From Rhizobium sp. Q54 (GTDB taxonomy: Bacteria; Pseudomonadota; Alphaproteobacteria; SHVZ01), in contig CAMBVS010000014.1 of the NCBI GenBank assembly GCA_945871425.1, positions 4,497 to 68,496 of the forward strand: a stretch of 64,000 nucleotides of DNA. Reading direction: 5' to 3'. Below, piece after piece: positions 32,566-35,955 of this stretch. The notes beneath the pieces are model-generated. The model had not been told where the DNA came from, made no database searches, and saw only the letters and a program-made list of their open reading frames with translations. A program made the position numbers and the translations under genes. Within the stretch, counting starts at the first letter, position 1; each line of letters begins with the position of its first letter.

Positions 32566-33537
32566 ATGAGCGACCAGCCGGGCAGCATTCTCGTCTATGT
32601 CGGCCTCGACCGCTTCGGTGACGGGCTGATGAAGCTGCCCTTCGCCCGCGCGGCTCGCAGCACCTGGCCGGAGGCACGCATCACCTGGCTCGCCGGCAAG
32701 GGCGAGACGGTCTATGCGGGGCGGCTCCGCGATCTGGTCGCGGGTCTGATCGACGAAGTGATCGAGAAGGCCGGCATCGGGCTTGCCGCGACCGAGCTGC
32801 TGCATCGGCCGCTGCCGGATCGGAGCTTCGACCTCATCCTCGACACCCAGCGCCGCGCGATGACCTCGCTGGTGCTGAAGCGCATCCGCCATCGCCGCTT
32901 CGTCTCCGGCACCGCCGGCTGGCTTCTCTCCGACGCCCGCCCGCCACGGCGGGAAAAGCCGCCGGCGATGATCCGCCAGATGCTCGACCTGATCGAGGCG
33001 GCGAGCGGCCACCCGGTCGAGCCGAGACGCGCCCGGGTCGAGCTGCCGGACGCGATCGAACGACAGGCGGCGGCCCTGCTGCCCGGCGGACCTCGCTACG
33101 TCGCGATCGTGCCCGGCGCCGGCGACAGGCGGAAATGCTGGCCGCTGGAGCGCTTCACCGCCCTCGGCGGCCGCCTGGAATCCCCGGTGGTCCTCCTCGG
33201 CCCCGACGAGACCGAGTGGCACGCCGGGCTCGCCGGCGCCTTGCCGCAGGCGCTGTTTCCGTTCCAGGCGACGGCGCTCGGCGCCGATCCCGCGCTCTCG
33301 CTGGCGGTGGCCCGGCGTCTGAAGGCGGCGGTCGCCAACGACGCCGGCATGGGCCACCTGCTGGCCGCCGGCGACTGCCCGCTGGTCTCGCTGTTCGGCC
33401 CGACGCCGGCCGCGAAATTCGCCCCCTTCGCCGAGCGGCTGACGGTGATCGAGGCGCAATCCTTCGGCGGTGACGAGATGGCGGCGATCCCGGTCGACGC
33501 CGTCGCCGAGGCGGTCGACCGCCATCTCCGCGGTTGA
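32566..33537 (+). CDS. Glycosyltransferase family 9 (heptosyltransferase-like)
   Basis: 'GDGL', 'FDLILD', 'KCWP', 'ANDAG.GHL.AA..PLVSLFGPT'. Confidence 0.85.
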   Translation: MSDQPGSILVYVGLDRFGDGLMKLPFARAARSTWPEARITWLAGKGETVYAGRLRDLVAGLIDEVIEKAGIGLAATELLHRPLPDRSFDLILDTQRRAMTSLVLKRIRHRRFVSGTAGWLLSDARPPRREKPPAMIRQMLDLIEAASGHPVEPRRARVELPDAIERQAAALLPGGPRYVAIVPGAGDRRKCWPLERFTALGGRLESPVVLLGPDETEWHAGLAGALPQALFPFQATALGADPALSLAVARRLKAAVANDAGMGHLLAAGDCPLVSLFGPTPAAKFAPFAERLTVIEAQSFGGDEMAAIPVDAVAEAVDRHLRG

Positions 33538-33563
33538 CGGCCCGCCGTCCCGGCCGCTACCTT
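33534..33563 (+). promoter_or_regulatory. Putative sigma70 promoter for a leaderless uORF transcript
   Basis: TTGACG(33534)-N18-TACCTT(33558), 6 nt before GTG 33570. Confidence 0.55.
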
Positions 33564-33569
33564 CGCCCC

Positions 33570-33620
33570 GTGGCAAACGGCCTGCGGAAGACCCTGCGAA
33601 TTACGACCCCGATCCTCTGA
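33570..33620 (+). CDS. Putative leader peptide MANGLRKTLRITTPIL (uORF)
   Basis: GTG GCA AAC GGC CTG CGG AAG ACC CTG CGA ATT ACG ACC CCG ATC CTC TGA; forms the 5' arm of the long hairpin. Confidence 0.5.
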   Translation: MANGLRKTLRITTPIL

Positions 33621-33672
33621 GGATCGGGTTGTCGTCGTTCGTCCGTGGTCTTCCGTCTTCAGGAGCCGTGCC
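33571..33672 (+). promoter_or_regulatory. Long RNA hairpin sequestering the downstream SD (candidate translational attenuator)
   Basis: ACGGC-CTG-CGGAAGACC..GCGAAT..ACGAC-CCCGATCCT / AGGATCGGG..GTCGT..GTTCGT..GGTCTTCCG..CAG-GA-GCCGT pairing covers AGGAG (33661-33665). Confidence 0.65.
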
Positions 33673-33975
33673 GTGTCCATATCCGTCGCCTATGACCGTC
33701 TTCCCGCCTCCTCCGAGGCGCTTCCCCACTGCTATTCGGTCCTCGCCCGCGCCGAGGTGTCGGTGATGCCGCGCGTGCTGGAGCTGTTCGTGAAGCGGGG
33801 CATCCTTCCCCGCCGCTGCCACGGCGTCGTCTCCGGCGCCGGGCATGACGAGCTTGAGATCGACCTCCAGGTCGACGGGCTCGACCTCGAGACCGCCGAG
33901 CACATCCAGCGCTGCCTGGCCCAGCTGGTCCATGTCGAGCGCGTGCTGATGTCGCGGGCGCATCGCTGCGCCTGA
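33673..33975 (+). CDS. Stand-alone ACT-like small protein (IlvM-like)
   Basis: 'YSVLARAEVSVMPRVLELFVKRG...LEIDLQV...IQRCLAQLVHVERV' fits a beta-alpha-beta-beta-alpha-beta pattern; SD AGGAG. Confidence 0.7.
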   Translation: MSISVAYDRLPASSEALPHCYSVLARAEVSVMPRVLELFVKRGILPRRCHGVVSGAGHDELEIDLQVDGLDLETAEHIQRCLAQLVHVERVLMSRAHRCA

Positions 33976-34823
33976 TGGCCTTCGTCGACCACATCCGGCG
34001 CTGCAACGCCTATGCGCCGGAGGACTTCGTTCCGTGGTCGATCTCGGGCGAGACCGCCGGGTATGTGCGCCGGACGCTGCGGCCGGTGCTGGCCGGATAT
34101 GCCGGGCTGTTCGTCGACGACGGCGGGCTCGCCCTCGATCCGCGCCACGCCGATGCCGCCGCGCGCACGGCGGCGCTGGCGGAGACGGTCGACCGGCTCC
34201 ACCGGGCCGGCCTCGTCCGGCACGTCACCGGCGAAACCGCGCCCGTCACCATCAAGGGCCGGCGAATTGCCGCGATCGAGCGAGGCGCGCTCGACGTCTT
34301 CGGCATCGAGAGTGCAGGCTGCCATGTGAACGGCGTGGTCCGCCGGCCCGACGGTCTCCATCTCTGGATCACCCGACGCTCGCCGACCAAGCGCACTTTC
34401 CCGAACCTGCTCGACAACTTCGTCGCCGGCGGCCAGCCCGACGGTCTCACCGTCATCGAGAATCTGGTCAAGGAATGCGGAGAGGAGGCGGGCGTGCCGC
34501 CGGAGCTCGCCCGTCGGGCCGTGCCCGTCGGCATCATCAGCTACGTGATGGCGAACGAGCCCGACATCGGCAATGGCCTCAGCCGTCACGTCCTTCACTG
34601 TTTCGACCTGGAGTTGCCGGGTGATTTCCGGCCGACGGCGGTCGACGGCGAGATCGCCGAGTTCCGGCTGCTGCCGGCGGCGGAGGTCGGCGCCATCATC
34701 GAGGGCGGCTGGAGCTTCAAGTTCAACTGCGCATTGGTGGCCATCGACTTCATGATCAGACATGGCCTGATCGATCCGGATCACCCTGACTATCTGGAAA
34801 TCTGCCGGGGCCTCCGGCGGTGA
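33975..34823 (+). CDS. DUF4743-containing Nudix hydrolase
   Basis: 'CHVNG', 'LWITRRSPTKRTFPNLLDNFVAGG', Nudix box 'KECGEEAG', 'FKFNCALV.IDF'; TGATG overlap with the ACT gene. Confidence 0.88.
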   Translation: MAFVDHIRRCNAYAPEDFVPWSISGETAGYVRRTLRPVLAGYAGLFVDDGGLALDPRHADAAARTAALAETVDRLHRAGLVRHVTGETAPVTIKGRRIAAIERGALDVFGIESAGCHVNGVVRRPDGLHLWITRRSPTKRTFPNLLDNFVAGGQPDGLTVIENLVKECGEEAGVPPELARRAVPVGIISYVMANEPDIGNGLSRHVLHCFDLELPGDFRPTAVDGEIAEFRLLPAAEVGAIIEGGWSFKFNCALVAIDFMIRHGLIDPDHPDYLEICRGLRR

Positions 34824-34912: not shown

Positions 34913-35119
34913 GTGATCGGCCAGCTCACCGGCAGCATCGCCCATGACTTCAGCGATCTCCTGAGCATCATCATCGGCAATCTCGACGTCCTGCAGGACG
35001 ACTCGACGGTCGTGAAGGACCCGGCGATGACGGCGACGCTGGTCGACGAAGCCCTGCAGAAGCCGTTCCGGCGCGCCGAGCTGCTCGCCATCGTCGACGG
35101 CCCGATCGGCAAGACCTAG
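34913..35119 (+). pseudogene. Internally deleted hybrid histidine kinase remnant (HisKA start joined to receiver end)
   Basis: 'IGQLTGSIAHDFSDLLSIIIGNLD' H-box followed in frame by the receiver tail 'LQKPFRRAELLAIV'. Confidence 0.75.
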
Positions 35120-35955
35120 CCTGGAAATCCCGCCATCGTCCGGACCTCCGCCGGGCTCCGCCCCTGGTCGCGCAATGCCGCCAGGGTCGGCGCGCCGTCG
35201 CGCTTGGCAAGCCGCCTGCCCGCCGCATCGAGGATCAGCGGGTGGTGCTCGTAGTCGGGCGTCGGCAAGCCGAGCAGCGCCTGAAGCAGCCGGTGGACGT
35301 CGGTGGATGCCAAGAGATCCTCGCCGCGGGTGACCAGGGTCACGCCTTGAAGGGCGTCGTCGAGGGTGACGGCGAGGTGGTAGCTCGCCGGCGTCTCCTT
35401 CCGTCCGAGGACCACGTCGCCGAAGCGCTCCGGCTCGGCCCTTTGCTCGCCGCGCCGGCGATCGTGCCAGGTGAGCGGGCCGGCACCGGCACGAGCCTTC
35501 GCCATGTCGAGCCTGAGCGCATAGGGACGGCCCGCCTCGATCCGGCTCATCCGCTCCTCCTCACCGAGGGCACGGCAGGTGCCGGGATAGAGCGGGCCGT
35601 CCGGACCGTGCGGCGCAGCGCCCGACCGCTCGATCTCGGCCTTGATCTCGGCCCGCGTGCAGAAGCACGGATAGAGCAGGCCCGCCGCCCGAAGGCGGTC
35701 GAGCCCGCCCAGGTAGTCGGCCATGTGCCTCGACTGGCGCCGGATCTCGCCGTCCCAGTCGAGGCCGAGCCAGGCGAGATCCTCGCCGATGGCATCGACG
35801 AACTCCGGCCGGCAGCGCGTGCTGTCGATGTCCTCGATGCGCAGGAGAAAGCGTCCGCCGGCCTCCCGCGCCCGGCGATGGCCGAGGAGGGCCGAATGGG
35901 CATGTCCGAGATGAAGGCGCCCGGTCGGGCTCGGCGCGAAGCGAGTGACGATCAT
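35116..35955 (-). CDS. gluQ: tRNA glutamyl-Q(34) synthetase
   Basis: 'RFAPSPTG.LHLGH', 'YPCFCTR', 'YPGTCR', 'RLAKRD'; no anticodon-binding domain. Confidence 0.93.
   Translation of the reverse strand: MIVTRFAPSPTGRLHLGHAHSALLGHRRAREAGGRFLLRIEDIDSTRCRPEFVDAIGEDLAWLGLDWDGEIRRQSRHMADYLGGLDRLRAAGLLYPCFCTRAEIKAEIERSGAAPHGPDGPLYPGTCRALGEEERMSRIEAGRPYALRLDMAKARAGAGPLTWHDRRRGEQRAEPERFGDVVLGRKETPASYHLAVTLDDALQGVTLVTRGEDLLASTDVHRLLQALLGLPTPDYEHHPLILDAAGRRLAKRDGAPTLAALRDQGRSPAEVRTMAGFPG

What the first reader, a model, noticed from the sequence alone, without database searches (positions are those of the whole stretch)
33534..33975. Candidate new translational attenuator: leaderless Ile/Thr uORF controlling a stand-alone ACT protein
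Seen: (i) TTGACG-N18-TACCTT placed so that +1 would fall on GTG 33570; (ii) a 16-codon uORF MANGLRKTLRITTPIL whose 3' half is Leu/Ile/Thr-rich and includes CGA-ATT, codons unusual in this GC-rich DNA; (iii) the uORF is the 5' arm of a ~100-nt rod-like hairpin (CGGAAGACC/GGTCTTCCG, CCCGATCCT/AGGATCGGG) whose 3' arm masks the SD AGGAG of a 100-aa ACT-like gene; (iv) no poly-U tract, which favours translational over transcriptional control. Established: Thr/Ile leader peptides regulate thr/ilv operons, and ACT domains bind amino acids. Inference: ribosome stalling on the uORF opens the hairpin and switches on an orphan regulatory subunit, for example an alternative AHAS small subunit. I do not recognise this as a described system.
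Basis: partly seen in the sequence, partly recalled or inferred. Interest (0 to 1): 0.8.

Follow-up and report, generated by a model that had tools for sequence, protein, structure and literature searches.

The report
Isoleucine-codon leader before mini AHAS subunit
A short upstream reading frame with one fixed isoleucine codon, set just before a strong RNA hairpin, precedes a small regulatory-subunit gene here and the isoleucyl-tRNA synthetase gene in many related bacteria, so it probably switches these genes on when isoleucine runs short.

Summary
The hexamers, the 16-codon GTG uORF (33570-33620), the about 100-nt rod hairpin (MFE -60 kcal/mol, z -6.25) and the lack of a terminator are all present.

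Comparison shows a conserved element. All 80 of 80 loci found through the downstream protein carry CGAATTA upstream. The best promoter-plus-start-codon pair is in frame with CGA-ATT in 79 of 79.

The pattern CGAATTA-N4-CCCG-hairpin-CGGG occurs in 107 of 401 alphaproteobacterial genomes. Of 128 hits fetched, 51 precede ileS, 52 an ACT-like gene, 2 a catalytic-only threonine ammonia-lyase and 1 ribF-ileS. So it is an isoleucine leader, not an Ile/Thr one.

The 100-aa product has an ACT fold closest to IlvN. It is modelled onto the AHAS large subunit at 0.76 against 0.00 for the best control, possibly by likeness to solved complexes.

The mechanism is inferred: ribosomes stall at AUU and unmask the Shine-Dalgarno site. 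Folding suggests one stalled ribosome is not enough and a queue covering the 5' end is needed.

The only prior mention found is an "ileS leader CDS" in Caulobacter (PMC4117421). Verdict: new variant of a known kind.

The parts
33534..33539 (+). -35-like hexamer TTGACG
   Evidence: Sequence. A TTGAC-type hexamer lies 16-19 nt upstream of the -10-like box in the best-scoring arrangement of the 79 related loci. The consensus scanner does not call it in the window.
33558..33563 (+). -10-like hexamer TACCTT, 6 nt before the uORF start
   Evidence: Sequence. It matches 3 of 6 positions of TATAAT. Relatives have TAGGGT, TATGAT, TAATAT or TACATC in the same place, 4-9 nt before the start codon.
33570..33620 (+). 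Leaderless uORF (GTG start, 16 codons, TGA stop in the apical loop): MANGLRKTLRITTPIL
   Evidence: The start found by the promoter criterion is in frame with CGA-ATT in 79 of 79 loci, at 11 different distances that are all multiples of 3. An open in-frame ATG lies 12-69 nt upstream in 179 of 189 distinct leaders, against 15 and 14 in the other two frames. Within the genus the loop stop varies between TGA, TAG and TAA.
33577..33583 (+). Anti-SD segment inside uORF codons 3-5; it pairs with the SD region at the base of the rod
   Evidence: MFE structures. In relatives the SD partners are nt 12-19 of the leader. Covering nt 1-16 lowers the cost of opening the ribosome-binding site (window 10.3 to 4.4 kcal/mol; median 16.6 to 7.7).
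33585..33593 (+). Basal 5' arm CGGAAGACC
   Evidence: Pairs with 33647-33655 in the MFE structure.
33597..33603 (+). Invariant heptamer CGAATTA (Arg CGA, Ile ATT, then A): the presumed sensing codon pair
   Evidence: Present in 80 of 80 loci found through the protein and invariant in alignment A2. It occurs 19 times in the whole 67.9% G+C genome, and only this copy is followed by a hairpin. One natural variant, CTT-ATT-A, was found.
33604..33607 (+). Fixed 4-nt spacer between the heptamer and the hairpin
   Evidence: No gaps in this stretch in 75 of 75 aligned leaders.
33608..33628 (+). Apical GC-clamped hairpin (CCCGATCCT / AGGATCGGG); the uORF stop lies in its loop
   Evidence: CCCG and CGGG are invariant or nearly so. 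Three inner pairs change on both sides. In the 8-pair apical helix 93.2% of cells are paired; across all 13 counted pairs (apical helix plus CGAAU/RUUCG) 91.2% are paired, against 24-60% when the 3' partners are slid.
33637..33641 (+). GTTCG, 3' partner of CGAAT
   Evidence: Helix 17-21 / 66-70 of A2 is paired in 88% of cells. No covariation is possible because the 5' side is invariant.
33647..33655 (+). Basal 3' arm GGTCTTCCG
33661..33665 (+). Shine-Dalgarno AGGAG of the ACT-like gene, partly paired at the base of the rod
   Evidence: Median P(paired) is 0.80 over 76 distinct leaders and about 0.59 in the window's near relatives.
33673..33975 (+). 100-aa stand-alone ACT-fold protein (IlvN/IlvM-like mini subunit; precomputed family PF26954)
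   Evidence: Modelled onto the AHAS large subunit of same-genus genome G008 at ipSAE 0.76 against 0.00 for the best control.
33975..34823 (+). DUF4743 + NUDIX hydrolase gene; its start overlaps the ACT gene's stop (TGATG)
   Evidence: It follows the ACT gene in 42 of 80 related loci.

Best explanation
The element is a ribosome-dependent, isoleucine-sensing translational attenuator.

Proposed steps:
1. A sigma-70-type promoter starts the mRNA at or within a few bases of the uORF start codon, so the uORF is leaderless.
2. The uORF holds one fixed Ile codon (AUU), preceded by the rare Arg codon CGA. Exactly 5 nt after AUU, a hairpin begins with three G-C pairs.
3. Left alone, the whole 100-130-nt leader folds into a rod. 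In it the first codons of the uORF pair with the SD and start region of the downstream gene, which keeps that gene off.
4. When charged tRNA-Ile is scarce, ribosomes wait at AUU. Following ribosomes then stay on the 5' end of the uORF, the anti-SD is covered, and the gene is translated.
5. Here that gene encodes a mini ACT subunit that probably binds acetohydroxyacid synthase (AHAS). The NUDIX gene is coupled to it.

Shown: the conserved uORF, heptamer, spacing, hairpin and rod, and the isoleucine-related genes under the same leader. Inferred: the transcription start site, the stalling, the queueing, the direction of control and the partner of the ACT protein.
For: Translation of the uORF:
- The start chosen by the promoter criterion is in frame with CGA in 79 of 79 loci, at 11 distances from 15 to 54 nt that are all multiples of 3.
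- An open in-frame ATG is found in 179 of 189 leaders, against 15 and 14 in the other frames.
- Loop stops vary between TGA, TAG and TAA.

Isoleucine link:
- Of 128 pattern hits fetched, 51 precede ileS, 52 an ACT-like gene, 2 a catalytic-only threonine ammonia-lyase (NF005600, E 1e-101) and 1 ribF-ileS.
- ileS directly follows the ACT gene in 12 of 80 loci.
- Beyond the fixed AUU, Ile makes up 9.2% of upstream uORF codons against 4.1% in downstream genes, and 14.9% of the last five codons.
- ATT plus ATA are 54% of these extra Ile codons against 14.5% in the background. Relatives are not independent, so the p-values overstate.

Structure:
- Window z-score is -6.25.
- Over 76 distinct leaders the median z is -4.7 and the median P(SD paired) is 0.80.
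- The apical stem covaries.
- Each leader's own 5' and 3' strands pair better than mismatched ones (-24.5 against -17.0 kcal/mol), and the own partner ranks first in 11 of 29 lineages.

No terminator:
- One search finds none in the window.
- A U-rich tail follows the apical hairpin in 4 of 125 ACT leaders and 6 of 51 ileS leaders.

Unmasking:
- Covering nt 1-16, or the whole 5' part up to a stalled ribosome, lowers the cost of opening the ribosome-binding site from a median 16.6 to 7.7 or 8.6 kcal/mol.

ACT protein:
- ACT fold, with IlvN among the best matches (TM 0.71/0.77).
- Complex score 0.76, best control 0.00. The mark was reached by 58 of 80 solved complexes and 2 of 110 mismatched pairs. 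Runs agree in at least 68% of contacts and the partner's pLDDT is at least 80.

Precedent:
- Leaderless trpL attenuator in S. meliloti (PMC10117765, passages).
- 'ileS leader CDS' seen by ribosome profiling in Caulobacter (PMC4117421, passages).
Against: - There is no experimental transcription start, ribosome or reporter data for this organism.
- The promoter scanner calls nothing in the window.
- A single ribosome modelled at CGA(P)/AUU(A) does not free the SD. Median P(paired) is 0.78 against 0.79 for the free leader.
- That single ribosome lowers the opening cost by only a median 2.3 kcal/mol, and in the window not at all (10.3 to 11.0). The model therefore needs queueing or kinetics, neither of which is shown.
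- 63 of 184 leaders have no Ile codon other than the fixed one, unlike classical multi-codon attenuators.
- CGA, ATT and the following A are fixed at synonymous or non-coding positions. Amino-acid sensing alone does not explain this.
- In 76 of 121 ACT-type leaders the uORF runs on past the main start codon. Fast translation should then also open the structure.
- Own-strand pairing ranks poorly in some lineages (rank 14-26 of 29 in 7 lineages).
- The complex pass may reflect likeness to solved AHAS holoenzymes.
- The ACT protein misses the curated cut-off of the AHAS small-subunit family (13.6 bits against 119).
Confidence: 0.55

Rival explanations
1. The invariant CGAAUUA, the fixed spacer and the GC hairpin form a binding site for a trans-acting factor. 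Candidates are IleRS, the ACT protein itself loaded with Ile (TRAP-like), or uncharged tRNA-Ile read through the AUU-A 'specifier' as in a T-box. Binding, not ribosome stalling, would set expression. The uORF would only help to open or load the leader.
For: - Conservation is at the nucleotide level and at synonymous sites. CGA and ATT are kept in 80 of 80 leaders and the next base is A, while the encoded third residue varies (T, S, I, M, R).
- The spacer is fixed at 4 nt in 75 of 75.
- A single stalled ribosome does not unmask the SD in folding.
- The leader travels with the ACT gene into several different neighbourhoods.
- The ACT fold shares the beta-alpha-beta-beta-alpha-beta topology with RNA-binding folds; ribosomal protein S6 appears among the structural hits.
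Against: - A protein- or tRNA-binding RNA needs no reading frame. Yet the frame, the start at the 5' end and frame-preserving length changes are conserved.
- Extra Ile codons with non-optimal codon choice are enriched.
- No T-box or other Rfam family matches.
- No conserved UGGN-type element appears in A2.
- 51 leaders precede ileS with no ACT gene directly downstream.
Confidence: 0.2
2. The uORF encodes an arrest peptide (core R-I-x-x-P). Together with free isoleucine or another small molecule inside the ribosome, it stalls translation, as TnaC does with tryptophan.
For: - R-I and P are fixed residues at fixed spacing in all leaders.
- The uORF is translated in a related setting: the Caulobacter ileS leader CDS (PMC4117421).
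- Many known arrest peptides end in or near proline (recalled, not from a call).
Against: - The two residues between I and P are highly variable.
- The proline codon is part of the invariant CCCG stem base, so its conservation can be explained by the RNA.
- Upstream residues and the peptide length before the motif vary widely, with 5 to 18 codons before CGA.
- Synonymous-site fixation is not explained.
- One leader has L-I instead of R-I.
Confidence: 0.1
3. The leader is not an Ile sensor. It would be a constitutive device: a stabilising 5' hairpin with a small uORF that couples or limits translation of the downstream gene regardless of isoleucine.
For: - Long uORFs that end just after the main start (76 of 121 ACT-type leaders) look like plain translational coupling.
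- No condition-dependent data exist.
- The window's own uORF has a single Ile codon.
Against: - The downstream genes are not random. 51 ileS, 52 AHAS-like subunit genes, threonine ammonia-lyase and ribF-ileS together account for 106 of 128 hits.
- One Ile codon is invariant and others are enriched.
- Genomes carry separate copies before ileS, the ACT gene and PALP (pyridoxal-phosphate enzyme) or AAA_33 genes, as expected of a regulon.
Confidence: 0.1

Closest known systems
Classical leader-peptide transcription attenuators of branched-chain amino acid operons and of pheST (E. coli ilvGMEDA, ilvBN, pheM-pheST; recalled, no call)
   Same: A short uORF rich in the codons of the regulated amino acid. 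Ribosome position is read out through RNA pairing. The targets are biosynthesis and tRNA-charging genes for that amino acid.
   Different: There is no terminator or U-tract in the window. A U-rich tail after the apical hairpin occurs in 4 of 125 ACT leaders and 6 of 51 ileS leaders. The readout appears to be masking of the SD. One fixed Ile codon replaces a run of codons. The uORF is leaderless.
Leaderless trpL attenuator / rnTrpL of Sinorhizobium meliloti (PMC10117765, passages read; PMC6614838, abstract start seen in the listing)
   Same: An alphaproteobacterial leader peptide whose mRNA starts at the AUG of the uORF. It senses tRNA charging by ribosome position.
   Different: trpL works by transcription termination and senses Trp. 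This leader has no terminator, senses Ile (inferred), and has an invariant CGAAUUA plus a hairpin at fixed spacing.
Translational attenuation of ermC / cat / cmlA (recalled, no call)
   Same: A ribosome paused in a uORF rearranges a hairpin that hides the SD of the next gene. No terminator is involved.
   Different: There the stall is induced by a drug and a specific nascent peptide. Here the presumed signal is lack of Ile-tRNA at one codon, and the anti-SD lies at the very 5' end of a leaderless uORF.
'ileS leader CDS' CCNA_03934 of Caulobacter crescentus (PMC4117421; passages read)
   Same: A small translated ORF directly upstream of ileS in an alphaproteobacterium. 51 of the 128 pattern hits fetched here have that position.
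   Different: The paper uses it only as a negative control in a motility and cell-division assay and gives no mechanism. Whether it carries the CGAAUUA-hairpin motif could not be checked here. In the window the leader precedes an ACT-fold gene, not ileS.
T-box riboswitches of ileS in Firmicutes and Actinobacteria (recalled; PMC1262725 seen in the listing only)
   Same: The same regulatory logic: ileS is induced when tRNA-Ile is uncharged. In Actinobacteria the readout is translational, through SD masking. An Ile codon followed by a purine is the key element.
   Different: tRNA is read directly by the RNA without a ribosome. No T-box match was found here, and a conserved reading frame is present instead.
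AHAS regulatory subunits IlvN / IlvM / IlvH
   Same: A single ACT fold of about 90-100 residues, as in IlvN and IlvM. IlvN is among the best structural matches. It is modelled on the catalytic subunit at 0.76 against 0.00 for the best control. Some sources name relatives 'acetolactate synthase small subunit'.
   Different: It lies below the family cut-off (13.6 bits against 119) and has no Pfam-A hit locally. It is not adjacent to the AHAS large subunit; in G008 that place is taken by a canonical ilvH. It has its own Ile leader.

Membership tests
Ribosome-dependent leader-peptide attenuator (transcriptional type) | Short translated uORF carrying codons of the regulated amino acid | tested here: met
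   The uORF is conserved in frame. One Ile codon is invariant. Extra Ile codons make up 9.2% against 4.1% in the background. Translation itself is inferred, not measured.
Ribosome-dependent leader-peptide attenuator (transcriptional type) | Terminator hairpin with U-tract and a competing antiterminator | tested here: not met
   0 terminator-like sites in 33300-34100. A U-rich tail follows the apical hairpin in 4 of 125 ACT-type and 6 of 51 ileS-type leaders.
Ribosome-dependent leader-peptide attenuator (transcriptional type) | Controls genes for synthesis or charging of the same amino acid | tested here: met
   ileS 51, ribF-ileS 1, threonine ammonia-lyase 2 and ACT/AHAS-like 52 of 128 hits.
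Translational attenuation (ermC/cat type) | SD of the regulated gene paired with a segment lying inside the uORF | tested here: met
   In MFE structures the SD partners are nt 12-19 of the leaderless uORF. Median P(paired) is 0.80 in 76 leaders; window structure.
Translational attenuation (ermC/cat type) | A ribosome paused at the sensing site frees the SD | tested here: inconclusive
   A single footprint at CGA/AUU lowers the opening cost by a median 2.3 kcal/mol, and in the window it changes from 10.3 to 11.0. Covering the 5' end or a queue lowers it by about 7 kcal/mol. This is equilibrium folding only.
T-box riboswitch | Match to the T-box covariance model (Stem I, specifier loop, T-box sequence) | tested here: not met
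   No Rfam match at gathering score in the window or in 8 ileS-type loci. Nothing relevant appears at E up to 10 in 33400-33800.
Alphaproteobacterial ileS leader CDS (CCNA_03934) | Small translated ORF directly upstream of ileS | tested here: not met
   In the window the leader precedes the ACT-fold gene. The genome's ileS follows ribF with a 17-nt gap and no leader. The wider family does meet the feature in 51 loci.
Alphaproteobacterial ileS leader CDS (CCNA_03934) | Sequence likeness to CCNA_03934 | not testable with these tools
AHAS small (regulatory) subunit | ACT fold (beta-alpha-beta-beta-alpha-beta) | tested here: met
   AF2 model at pLDDT 84.7 with strands and helices in that order. 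Foldseek: IlvN 5ypp TM 0.71/0.77, rmsd 2.1.
AHAS small (regulatory) subunit | Scores above the curated family cut-off | tested here: not met
   NF008864 gives E 0.04 and 13.6 bits against a cut-off of 119. No Pfam-A family at E up to 0.1. Relatives carry the precomputed family PF26954 (22 of 25), whose name was not available.
AHAS small (regulatory) subunit | Binds the catalytic subunit | tested here: inconclusive
   The model supports binding: 0.76 against 0.00 for the best control. The mark was reached by 58 of 80 solved complexes and 2 of 110 mismatched pairs. The pass may come from likeness to solved AHAS complexes. No measurement exists.
AHAS small (regulatory) subunit | Encoded next to the large subunit | tested here: not met
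   In G008, G011 and G067 a canonical ilvH lies directly after the large subunit. The ACT gene lies elsewhere.

The most novel reading that the evidence does not exclude
The leader is a new kind of single-codon 'hungry-codon' sensor.

- The codon pair CGA-AUU, plus the next base A, sits exactly 4 nt before a hairpin clamped by three G-C pairs.
- The hairpin therefore abuts the ribosome's mRNA entrance just when AUU is in the A site. This geometry is inferred from recalled work on the ribosomal helicase and on frameshift stimulators.
- That would make decoding of one wobble-read Ile codon rate-limiting.
- The resulting pause is read out by ribosomes queueing back onto a leaderless 5' end that carries the anti-SD.

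With this device, Alphaproteobacteria would run an isoleucine regulon of ileS, a threonine ammonia-lyase and an inducible mini AHAS subunit. The mini subunit could keep branched-chain synthesis going when valine shuts off the canonical enzyme.
Probability: 0.3. Interest if true: 0.8.

Novelty: new variant of a known kind. Interest (0 to 1): 0.62.

Why it matters
- It would explain how many Alphaproteobacteria adjust IleRS and isoleucine synthesis to tRNA-Ile charging. Gram-positive bacteria do this with T-boxes, and no mechanism for Alphaproteobacteria turned up in the searched literature.
- It gives a compact, sequence-defined motif that can annotate this regulon in genomes: 107 of 401 sampled genomes.
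- The design is unusual: one fixed codon pair, fixed spacing to a GC clamp, a leaderless start and the anti-SD in the first codons. If confirmed, it would show how a single sense codon can act as a sensor, and how ribosome queueing on a leaderless mRNA can be used for control.
- It assigns a testable role to an unnamed family of about 100-aa ACT proteins (PF26954): inducible AHAS partners.
- It flags further genes of unknown role under the same signal: an AAA_33 kinase-like protein, a 170-aa protein and a DUF4743-NUDIX hydrolase.

Tried and rejected
- Repeat or mobile element: rejected. The leader matches only itself in the genome.
- Known RNA family: none in Rfam 15, either in the window or in 8 ileS-type and other loci.
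- RNAalifold on the MAFFT alignment gave only 5 pairs at the base of the apical stem. The basal rod aligns poorly between lineages, so I used per-sequence folds, hand-set pair counts and an own-versus-cross strand duplex test. The duplex test supports co-evolution in many lineages but not all (rank 1 in 11 of 29).
- Apical hairpin as an intrinsic terminator: rejected as a general feature.
- Programmed frameshift at CGAAUUA plus spacer plus hairpin: considered because of the geometry and rejected by inspection. The heptamer allows no re-pairing of the Arg or Ile tRNA in the -1 or +1 frame. This is my own reasoning, with no tool.
- CGAAUUA as an RNase E-type site, or as complementary to 16S rRNA: ideas from memory, not tested.
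- A leader before the window genome's own ribF-ileS: none found.
- Relaxed pattern meant to see which codon precedes ATT: the tool ignores leading N, so it showed nothing about CGA. From its list I fetched 12 places not found by the strict pattern. One is a true leader with CTT-ATT-A before an ACT-like gene; 11 have no ACT or ileS gene behind them. Whether ATC or ATA ever replaces ATT was not searched.
- RNA evidence: one lake metatranscriptome contig (X1, 160 nt, 6 differences) lies on 33582-33725, and one (X2) lies on 33770-34027. These are contigs of relatives, with no strand or 5' end, and DNA carry-over is possible, so they are not used as evidence.
- A single stalled ribosome unmasking the SD: not supported by folding, as reported above.
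- Canonical AHAS genes in the window's own assembly: none above cut-off, but the assembly is 82.8% complete. They are present in G008 of the same genus.
- Literature: four searches found no description of the mechanism. Subscription-only papers, such as the 2004 survey of attenuators in proteobacteria cited in PMC10117765, were not readable.


Full report
**1. What is in the window**

- TTGACG (33534-33539), 18 nt, TACCTT (33558-33563), then 6 nt to GTG at 33570.
- A 16-codon ORF, MANGLRKTLRITTPIL, ending in TGA at 33618-33620.
- The arm pairs CGGAAGACC/GGTCTTCCG and CCCGATCCT/AGGATCGGG.
- AGGAG at 33661-33665.
- A 100-aa ORF from GTG 33673 to 33975. The next ORF starts inside its stop (TGATG).

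The stretch 33570-33690 folds into one long irregular hairpin of -60.0 kcal/mol. This gives z -6.25, and none of 200 dinucleotide shuffles folds as well.

It is not a repeat: the 113-nt leader finds only itself in the 3.56-Mb assembly. It is not a known RNA family. No terminator-like site is present. The consensus scanner calls no promoter either, because TACCTT matches only three positions of TATAAT.

The neighbours are:
- a family-9 glycosyltransferase upstream;
- a DUF4743-NUDIX hydrolase downstream;
- a convergent class-I tRNA-synthetase-like gene.

**2. The downstream protein**

The 100-aa protein has no Pfam-A match locally. It has only a weak NCBIfam match to the AHAS small subunit: E 0.04, 13.6 bits against a cut-off of 119.

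Of its 25 database relatives, 22 carry the precomputed family PF26954, and 5 are named 'acetolactate synthase small subunit' by one source.

An AlphaFold2 model (pLDDT 84.7) has the beta-alpha-beta-beta-alpha-beta order of an ACT domain. Foldseek finds IlvN (5ypp, TM 0.71/0.77, rmsd 2.1), NikR and MgtC C-terminal domains, the yeast AHAS regulatory subunit and other ACT domains.

In G008, a 98%-complete genome of the same genus, a canonical AHAS large subunit and a canonical ilvH lie side by side. The small protein is therefore an extra. In the window's own 82.8%-complete assembly neither was found above cut-off.

A complex model of the G008 large subunit with the G008 copy of the small protein scored 0.76, against 0.00 for the best of 3 controls. 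This mark was reached by 58 of 80 solved complexes and 2 of 110 mismatched pairs. The runs agree in at least 68% of contacts, and the partner's pLDDT is at least 80. The contacts use the family's most conserved stretch, around PRVLELFVKR.

AHAS holoenzymes have been solved, so the pass may reflect likeness. It supports binding but does not show it.

**3. The leader is conserved wherever the protein is**

A protein-anchored scan of one genome per species returned 239 relatives. The best 80 loci were kept. By the record titles they are Rhodospirillaceae, Pelagibius, Kiloniellaceae, Thalassobaculaceae, Nisaea, Stellaceae and unnamed MAGs.

All 80 of 80 have CGAATTA within 400 nt upstream. The window's 67.9% G+C genome holds that heptamer only 19 times on both strands, and only this copy is followed by a hairpin.

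In an alignment of 75 distinct leaders:
- CGAATTA is invariant;
- exactly four bases follow it;
- then comes CCCG, which is invariant;
- the hairpin closes with CGGG.

Three inner pairs of that hairpin change on both sides. Overall 91.2% of cells are paired, against 24-60% when the partners are slid. CGAAU pairs with a downstream RUUCG in 88% of cells. Because the 5' side never varies, that helix cannot show covariation.

**4. The uORF is real**

For each locus I scored every ATG, GTG or TTG in any frame up to 90 nt upstream, together with the best -35/-10 pair lying 4-9 nt before it.

In 79 of 79 loci the winner is in frame with CGA-ATT (one further locus lacked upstream sequence). Its distance to CGA is 15, 24, 27, 30, 33, 36, 39, 42, 45, 51 or 54 nt, always a multiple of three. 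The start is ATG in 66 and GTG in 13.

Over 189 distinct leaders, including the ileS type described below, an open ATG lies 12-69 nt upstream in the CGA frame in 179. The other two frames give 15 and 14.

Within the window's genus the stop in the hairpin loop is TGA, TAG or TAA.

The start codon sits where transcription should begin, so the uORF is leaderless or nearly so. This rests on promoter-like hexamers, not on mapped 5' ends.

The peptide core is R-I-x-x-P. The residue after Ile is T, S, I, M or R while its first base stays A, and the proline codon is part of the stem. Conservation is therefore largely at the nucleotide level.

**5. The whole leader is a rod that hides the ribosome-binding site**

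From the uORF start to the main start is 100-132 nt. Across 76 distinct leaders folded alone:
- the median z-score is -4.7;
- the SD is paired with median probability 0.80;
- its partners are nt 12-19 of the leader, that is codons 4-6 of the uORF, often a CUCC.

Each lineage's own 5' and 3' strands pair better than mismatched ones (mean -24.5 against -17.0 kcal/mol). The own partner ranks first in 11 of 29 lineages. It ranks 14th or worse in seven.

In the window the SD is only partly paired.

**6. The same leader precedes ileS and other isoleucine genes**

In 12 of the 80 loci the ACT gene is followed directly by isoleucyl-tRNA synthetase. In 10 of these it is preceded by ribF. The NUDIX gene follows in 42 of 80 and an AAA_33 protein in 6 of 80.

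The strict pattern CGAATTA-N4-CCCG-N8-24-CGGG was then searched in 401 genomes sampled across the class. It was found in 107 genomes, or 80 of 307 genera. The reversed control pattern gave about 17 hits.

I fetched 125 places holding 128 hits and asked which gene comes first downstream:

| First downstream gene | Hits |
|---|---|
| ACT-like | 52 |
| ileS | 51 |
| AAA_33 | 6 |
| 170-aa protein with no family match | 3 |
| PLP enzyme | 2 |
| ribF followed by ileS | 1 |
| none of these | 13 |

The hits of G000, G005, G008, G011 (contig 80), G014, G020, G040 and G053 were not fetched again. Where I checked earlier, they lie before ACT genes.

The PLP enzyme is a threonine ammonia-lyase without its regulatory domain: NF005600, E 1e-101, profile positions 10-321 of 408.

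Genomes with several copies place them before different members of the set, for example ileS, ACT and the ammonia-lyase in G067 and G366. In G011, of the window's own family, one copy precedes the ACT gene and another ribF-ileS.

In the window's genome, ileS follows ribF after 17 nt with no leader.

ileS-type leaders mostly have short uORFs that stop in or next to the loop (46 of 51). ACT-type leaders are split, 45 short and 76 long.

**7. Signs of isoleucine sensing**

Leaving out the fixed codon, 184 distinct uORFs show these features:

| Measure | uORF | Downstream genes |
|---|---|---|
| Ile among upstream codons | 9.2% | 4.1% |
| Ile among the last five codons | 14.9% | - |
| ATT + ATA share of extra Ile codons | 54% | 14.5% |
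| Arg among upstream codons | 14.5% | 8.0% |

Some ileS leaders read I-I-I-R-I. But 63 of 184 have no second Ile codon, and the window's uORF is one of them. Relatives are not independent, so these contrasts are descriptive.

**8. How it most likely works, and where the argument is thin**

The pieces fit a translational attenuator:
1. A ribosome loads on the 5' end.
2. It reaches CGA-AUU.
3. It waits there if Ile-tRNA is scarce.
4. The ribosome-binding site of the next gene opens.

The fixed 4-nt spacer puts the first G-C pair of the hairpin 12 nt after the first base of the P-site codon when AUU is in the A site. From recalled work on the ribosomal helicase and on frameshift stimulators, that is where a downstream helix meets the ribosome. 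The GC clamp may therefore hold the ribosome at exactly this codon. This step is inference.

A direct test by constrained folding did not support the simplest version. With a footprint of -12 to +14 around CGA:
- the SD stays paired (median 0.78 against 0.79);
- the cost of opening -14 to +13 around the main start falls by a median of only 2.3 kcal/mol;
- in the window the cost changes from 10.3 to 11.0.

Covering the first 16 nt lowers the cost from a median 16.6 to 7.7 kcal/mol (window 10.3 to 4.4). Covering everything from the 5' end to the stalled ribosome lowers it to 8.6 (window 7.1).

The model therefore needs a second ribosome held on the start of the uORF behind the stalled one. The 24-54-nt distances between start and CGA would allow this, but nothing here shows it.

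The long uORFs that run over the main start in many ACT-type leaders are also not explained by a simple on/off picture.

**9. Rivals**

- The nucleotide-level invariance of CGAAUUA keeps open a factor-binding site, for IleRS, the ACT protein or tRNA-Ile. The conserved frame argues against a purely RNA-based switch.
- An arrest peptide is unlikely. The residues around the core vary, and one leader has L-I instead of R-I.
- A constitutive device is unlikely given the gene set.

**10. Comparison with what is known**

Leader-peptide attenuation, translational attenuation and leaderless leader peptides in Alphaproteobacteria are established. An example of the last is trpL of S. meliloti (PMC10117765, passages).

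An 'ileS leader CDS (CCNA_03934)' was seen by ribosome profiling in Caulobacter and used as a negative control (PMC4117421, passages). Four full-text searches found nothing more, and Rfam has no model. Papers outside the library and supplementary files were not seen.

I therefore class the finding as a new variant of a known kind. It is a defined, widespread isoleucine leader with an unusual single-codon design. Here it controls an AHAS-like mini subunit rather than ileS.

**11. Verdict**

- Observation: confirmed.
- Interpretation: partly supported. The uORF, the rod, the isoleucine link and the AHAS-subunit guess hold. Threonine sensing and 'orphan system' do not. The stalling-to-unmasking step is unproven and needs revision.
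- Confidence in the stated mechanism: 0.55.
- Interest: 0.62.

Noticed in passing
L152, L153, L213 (G240:C61, G069:C11, G368:C1): Two copies of the CGAATTA-hairpin motif lie about 180-200 nt apart in tandem before one ACT-like gene. Only the first copy has an in-frame start within 66 nt.
   Followed up: partly
L136, L144, L190, L212, L214, L229; also L034 and 5 other loci: An AAA_33 P-loop kinase-like protein of about 170-180 aa is either directly under the same leader (6 hits) or follows the ACT gene (6 of 80). It has a very weak match to a non-canonical homoserine kinase model: NF040667, E 3.9e-4, 20 bits against a cut-off of 197.
   Followed up: partly
L126-L128: A roughly 170-aa protein with no convincing family match sits under the same leader in three genomes of one genus, G047, G223 and G351.
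   Followed up: no
window 33975-34823: The start of the DUF4743-NUDIX hydrolase gene overlaps the stop of the ACT gene (TGATG). The gene follows the ACT gene in 42 of 80 related loci. Its link to isoleucine or AHAS is unexplained.
   Followed up: partly
L246 (G109:C9): A natural variant of the heptamer, CTT-ATT-A (Leu-Ile) instead of CGA-ATT-A, lies before an ACT-like gene. The spacer and hairpin are kept.
   Followed up: yes
L079, L093, L095, L098 (Nisaea): The heptamer CGAATTA occurs twice, 12 nt apart and in frame (R-I-I-G-R-I). Thalassobaculaceae have R-I-G-R-R-I, with the first pair written CGC-ATC.
   Followed up: no
G002:C291, G003:C139, G005:C22, G009:C33 (loci L009-L011, L019): In several MAGs of the genus the contig ends within a few hundred bases of this gene or inside it. 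This may reflect assembly breaks near the locus.
   Followed up: no
L137, L140 (G067, G366): The threonine ammonia-lyase under the leader has 321-330 aa and lacks the C-terminal ACT-like regulatory domain (profile positions 10-321 of 408). The same genomes also carry a leader-controlled stand-alone ACT gene, so a split enzyme is conceivable. This was not tested.
   Followed up: no
window 35116-35955 (- strand): A 279-aa class-I tRNA-synthetase catalytic-domain protein (tRNA-synt_1c, E 6.5e-52) lies convergent to the NUDIX gene. It is conserved next to the NUDIX gene in 17 of 80 loci. By recall it is probably a glutamyl-Q tRNA(Asp) synthetase.
   Followed up: no
window 33582-33725: One 160-nt contig from a lake metatranscriptome (X1, 6 differences) covers the leader from 12 nt after the predicted start into the ACT gene. 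It is too weak to count as evidence of transcription.
   Followed up: yes
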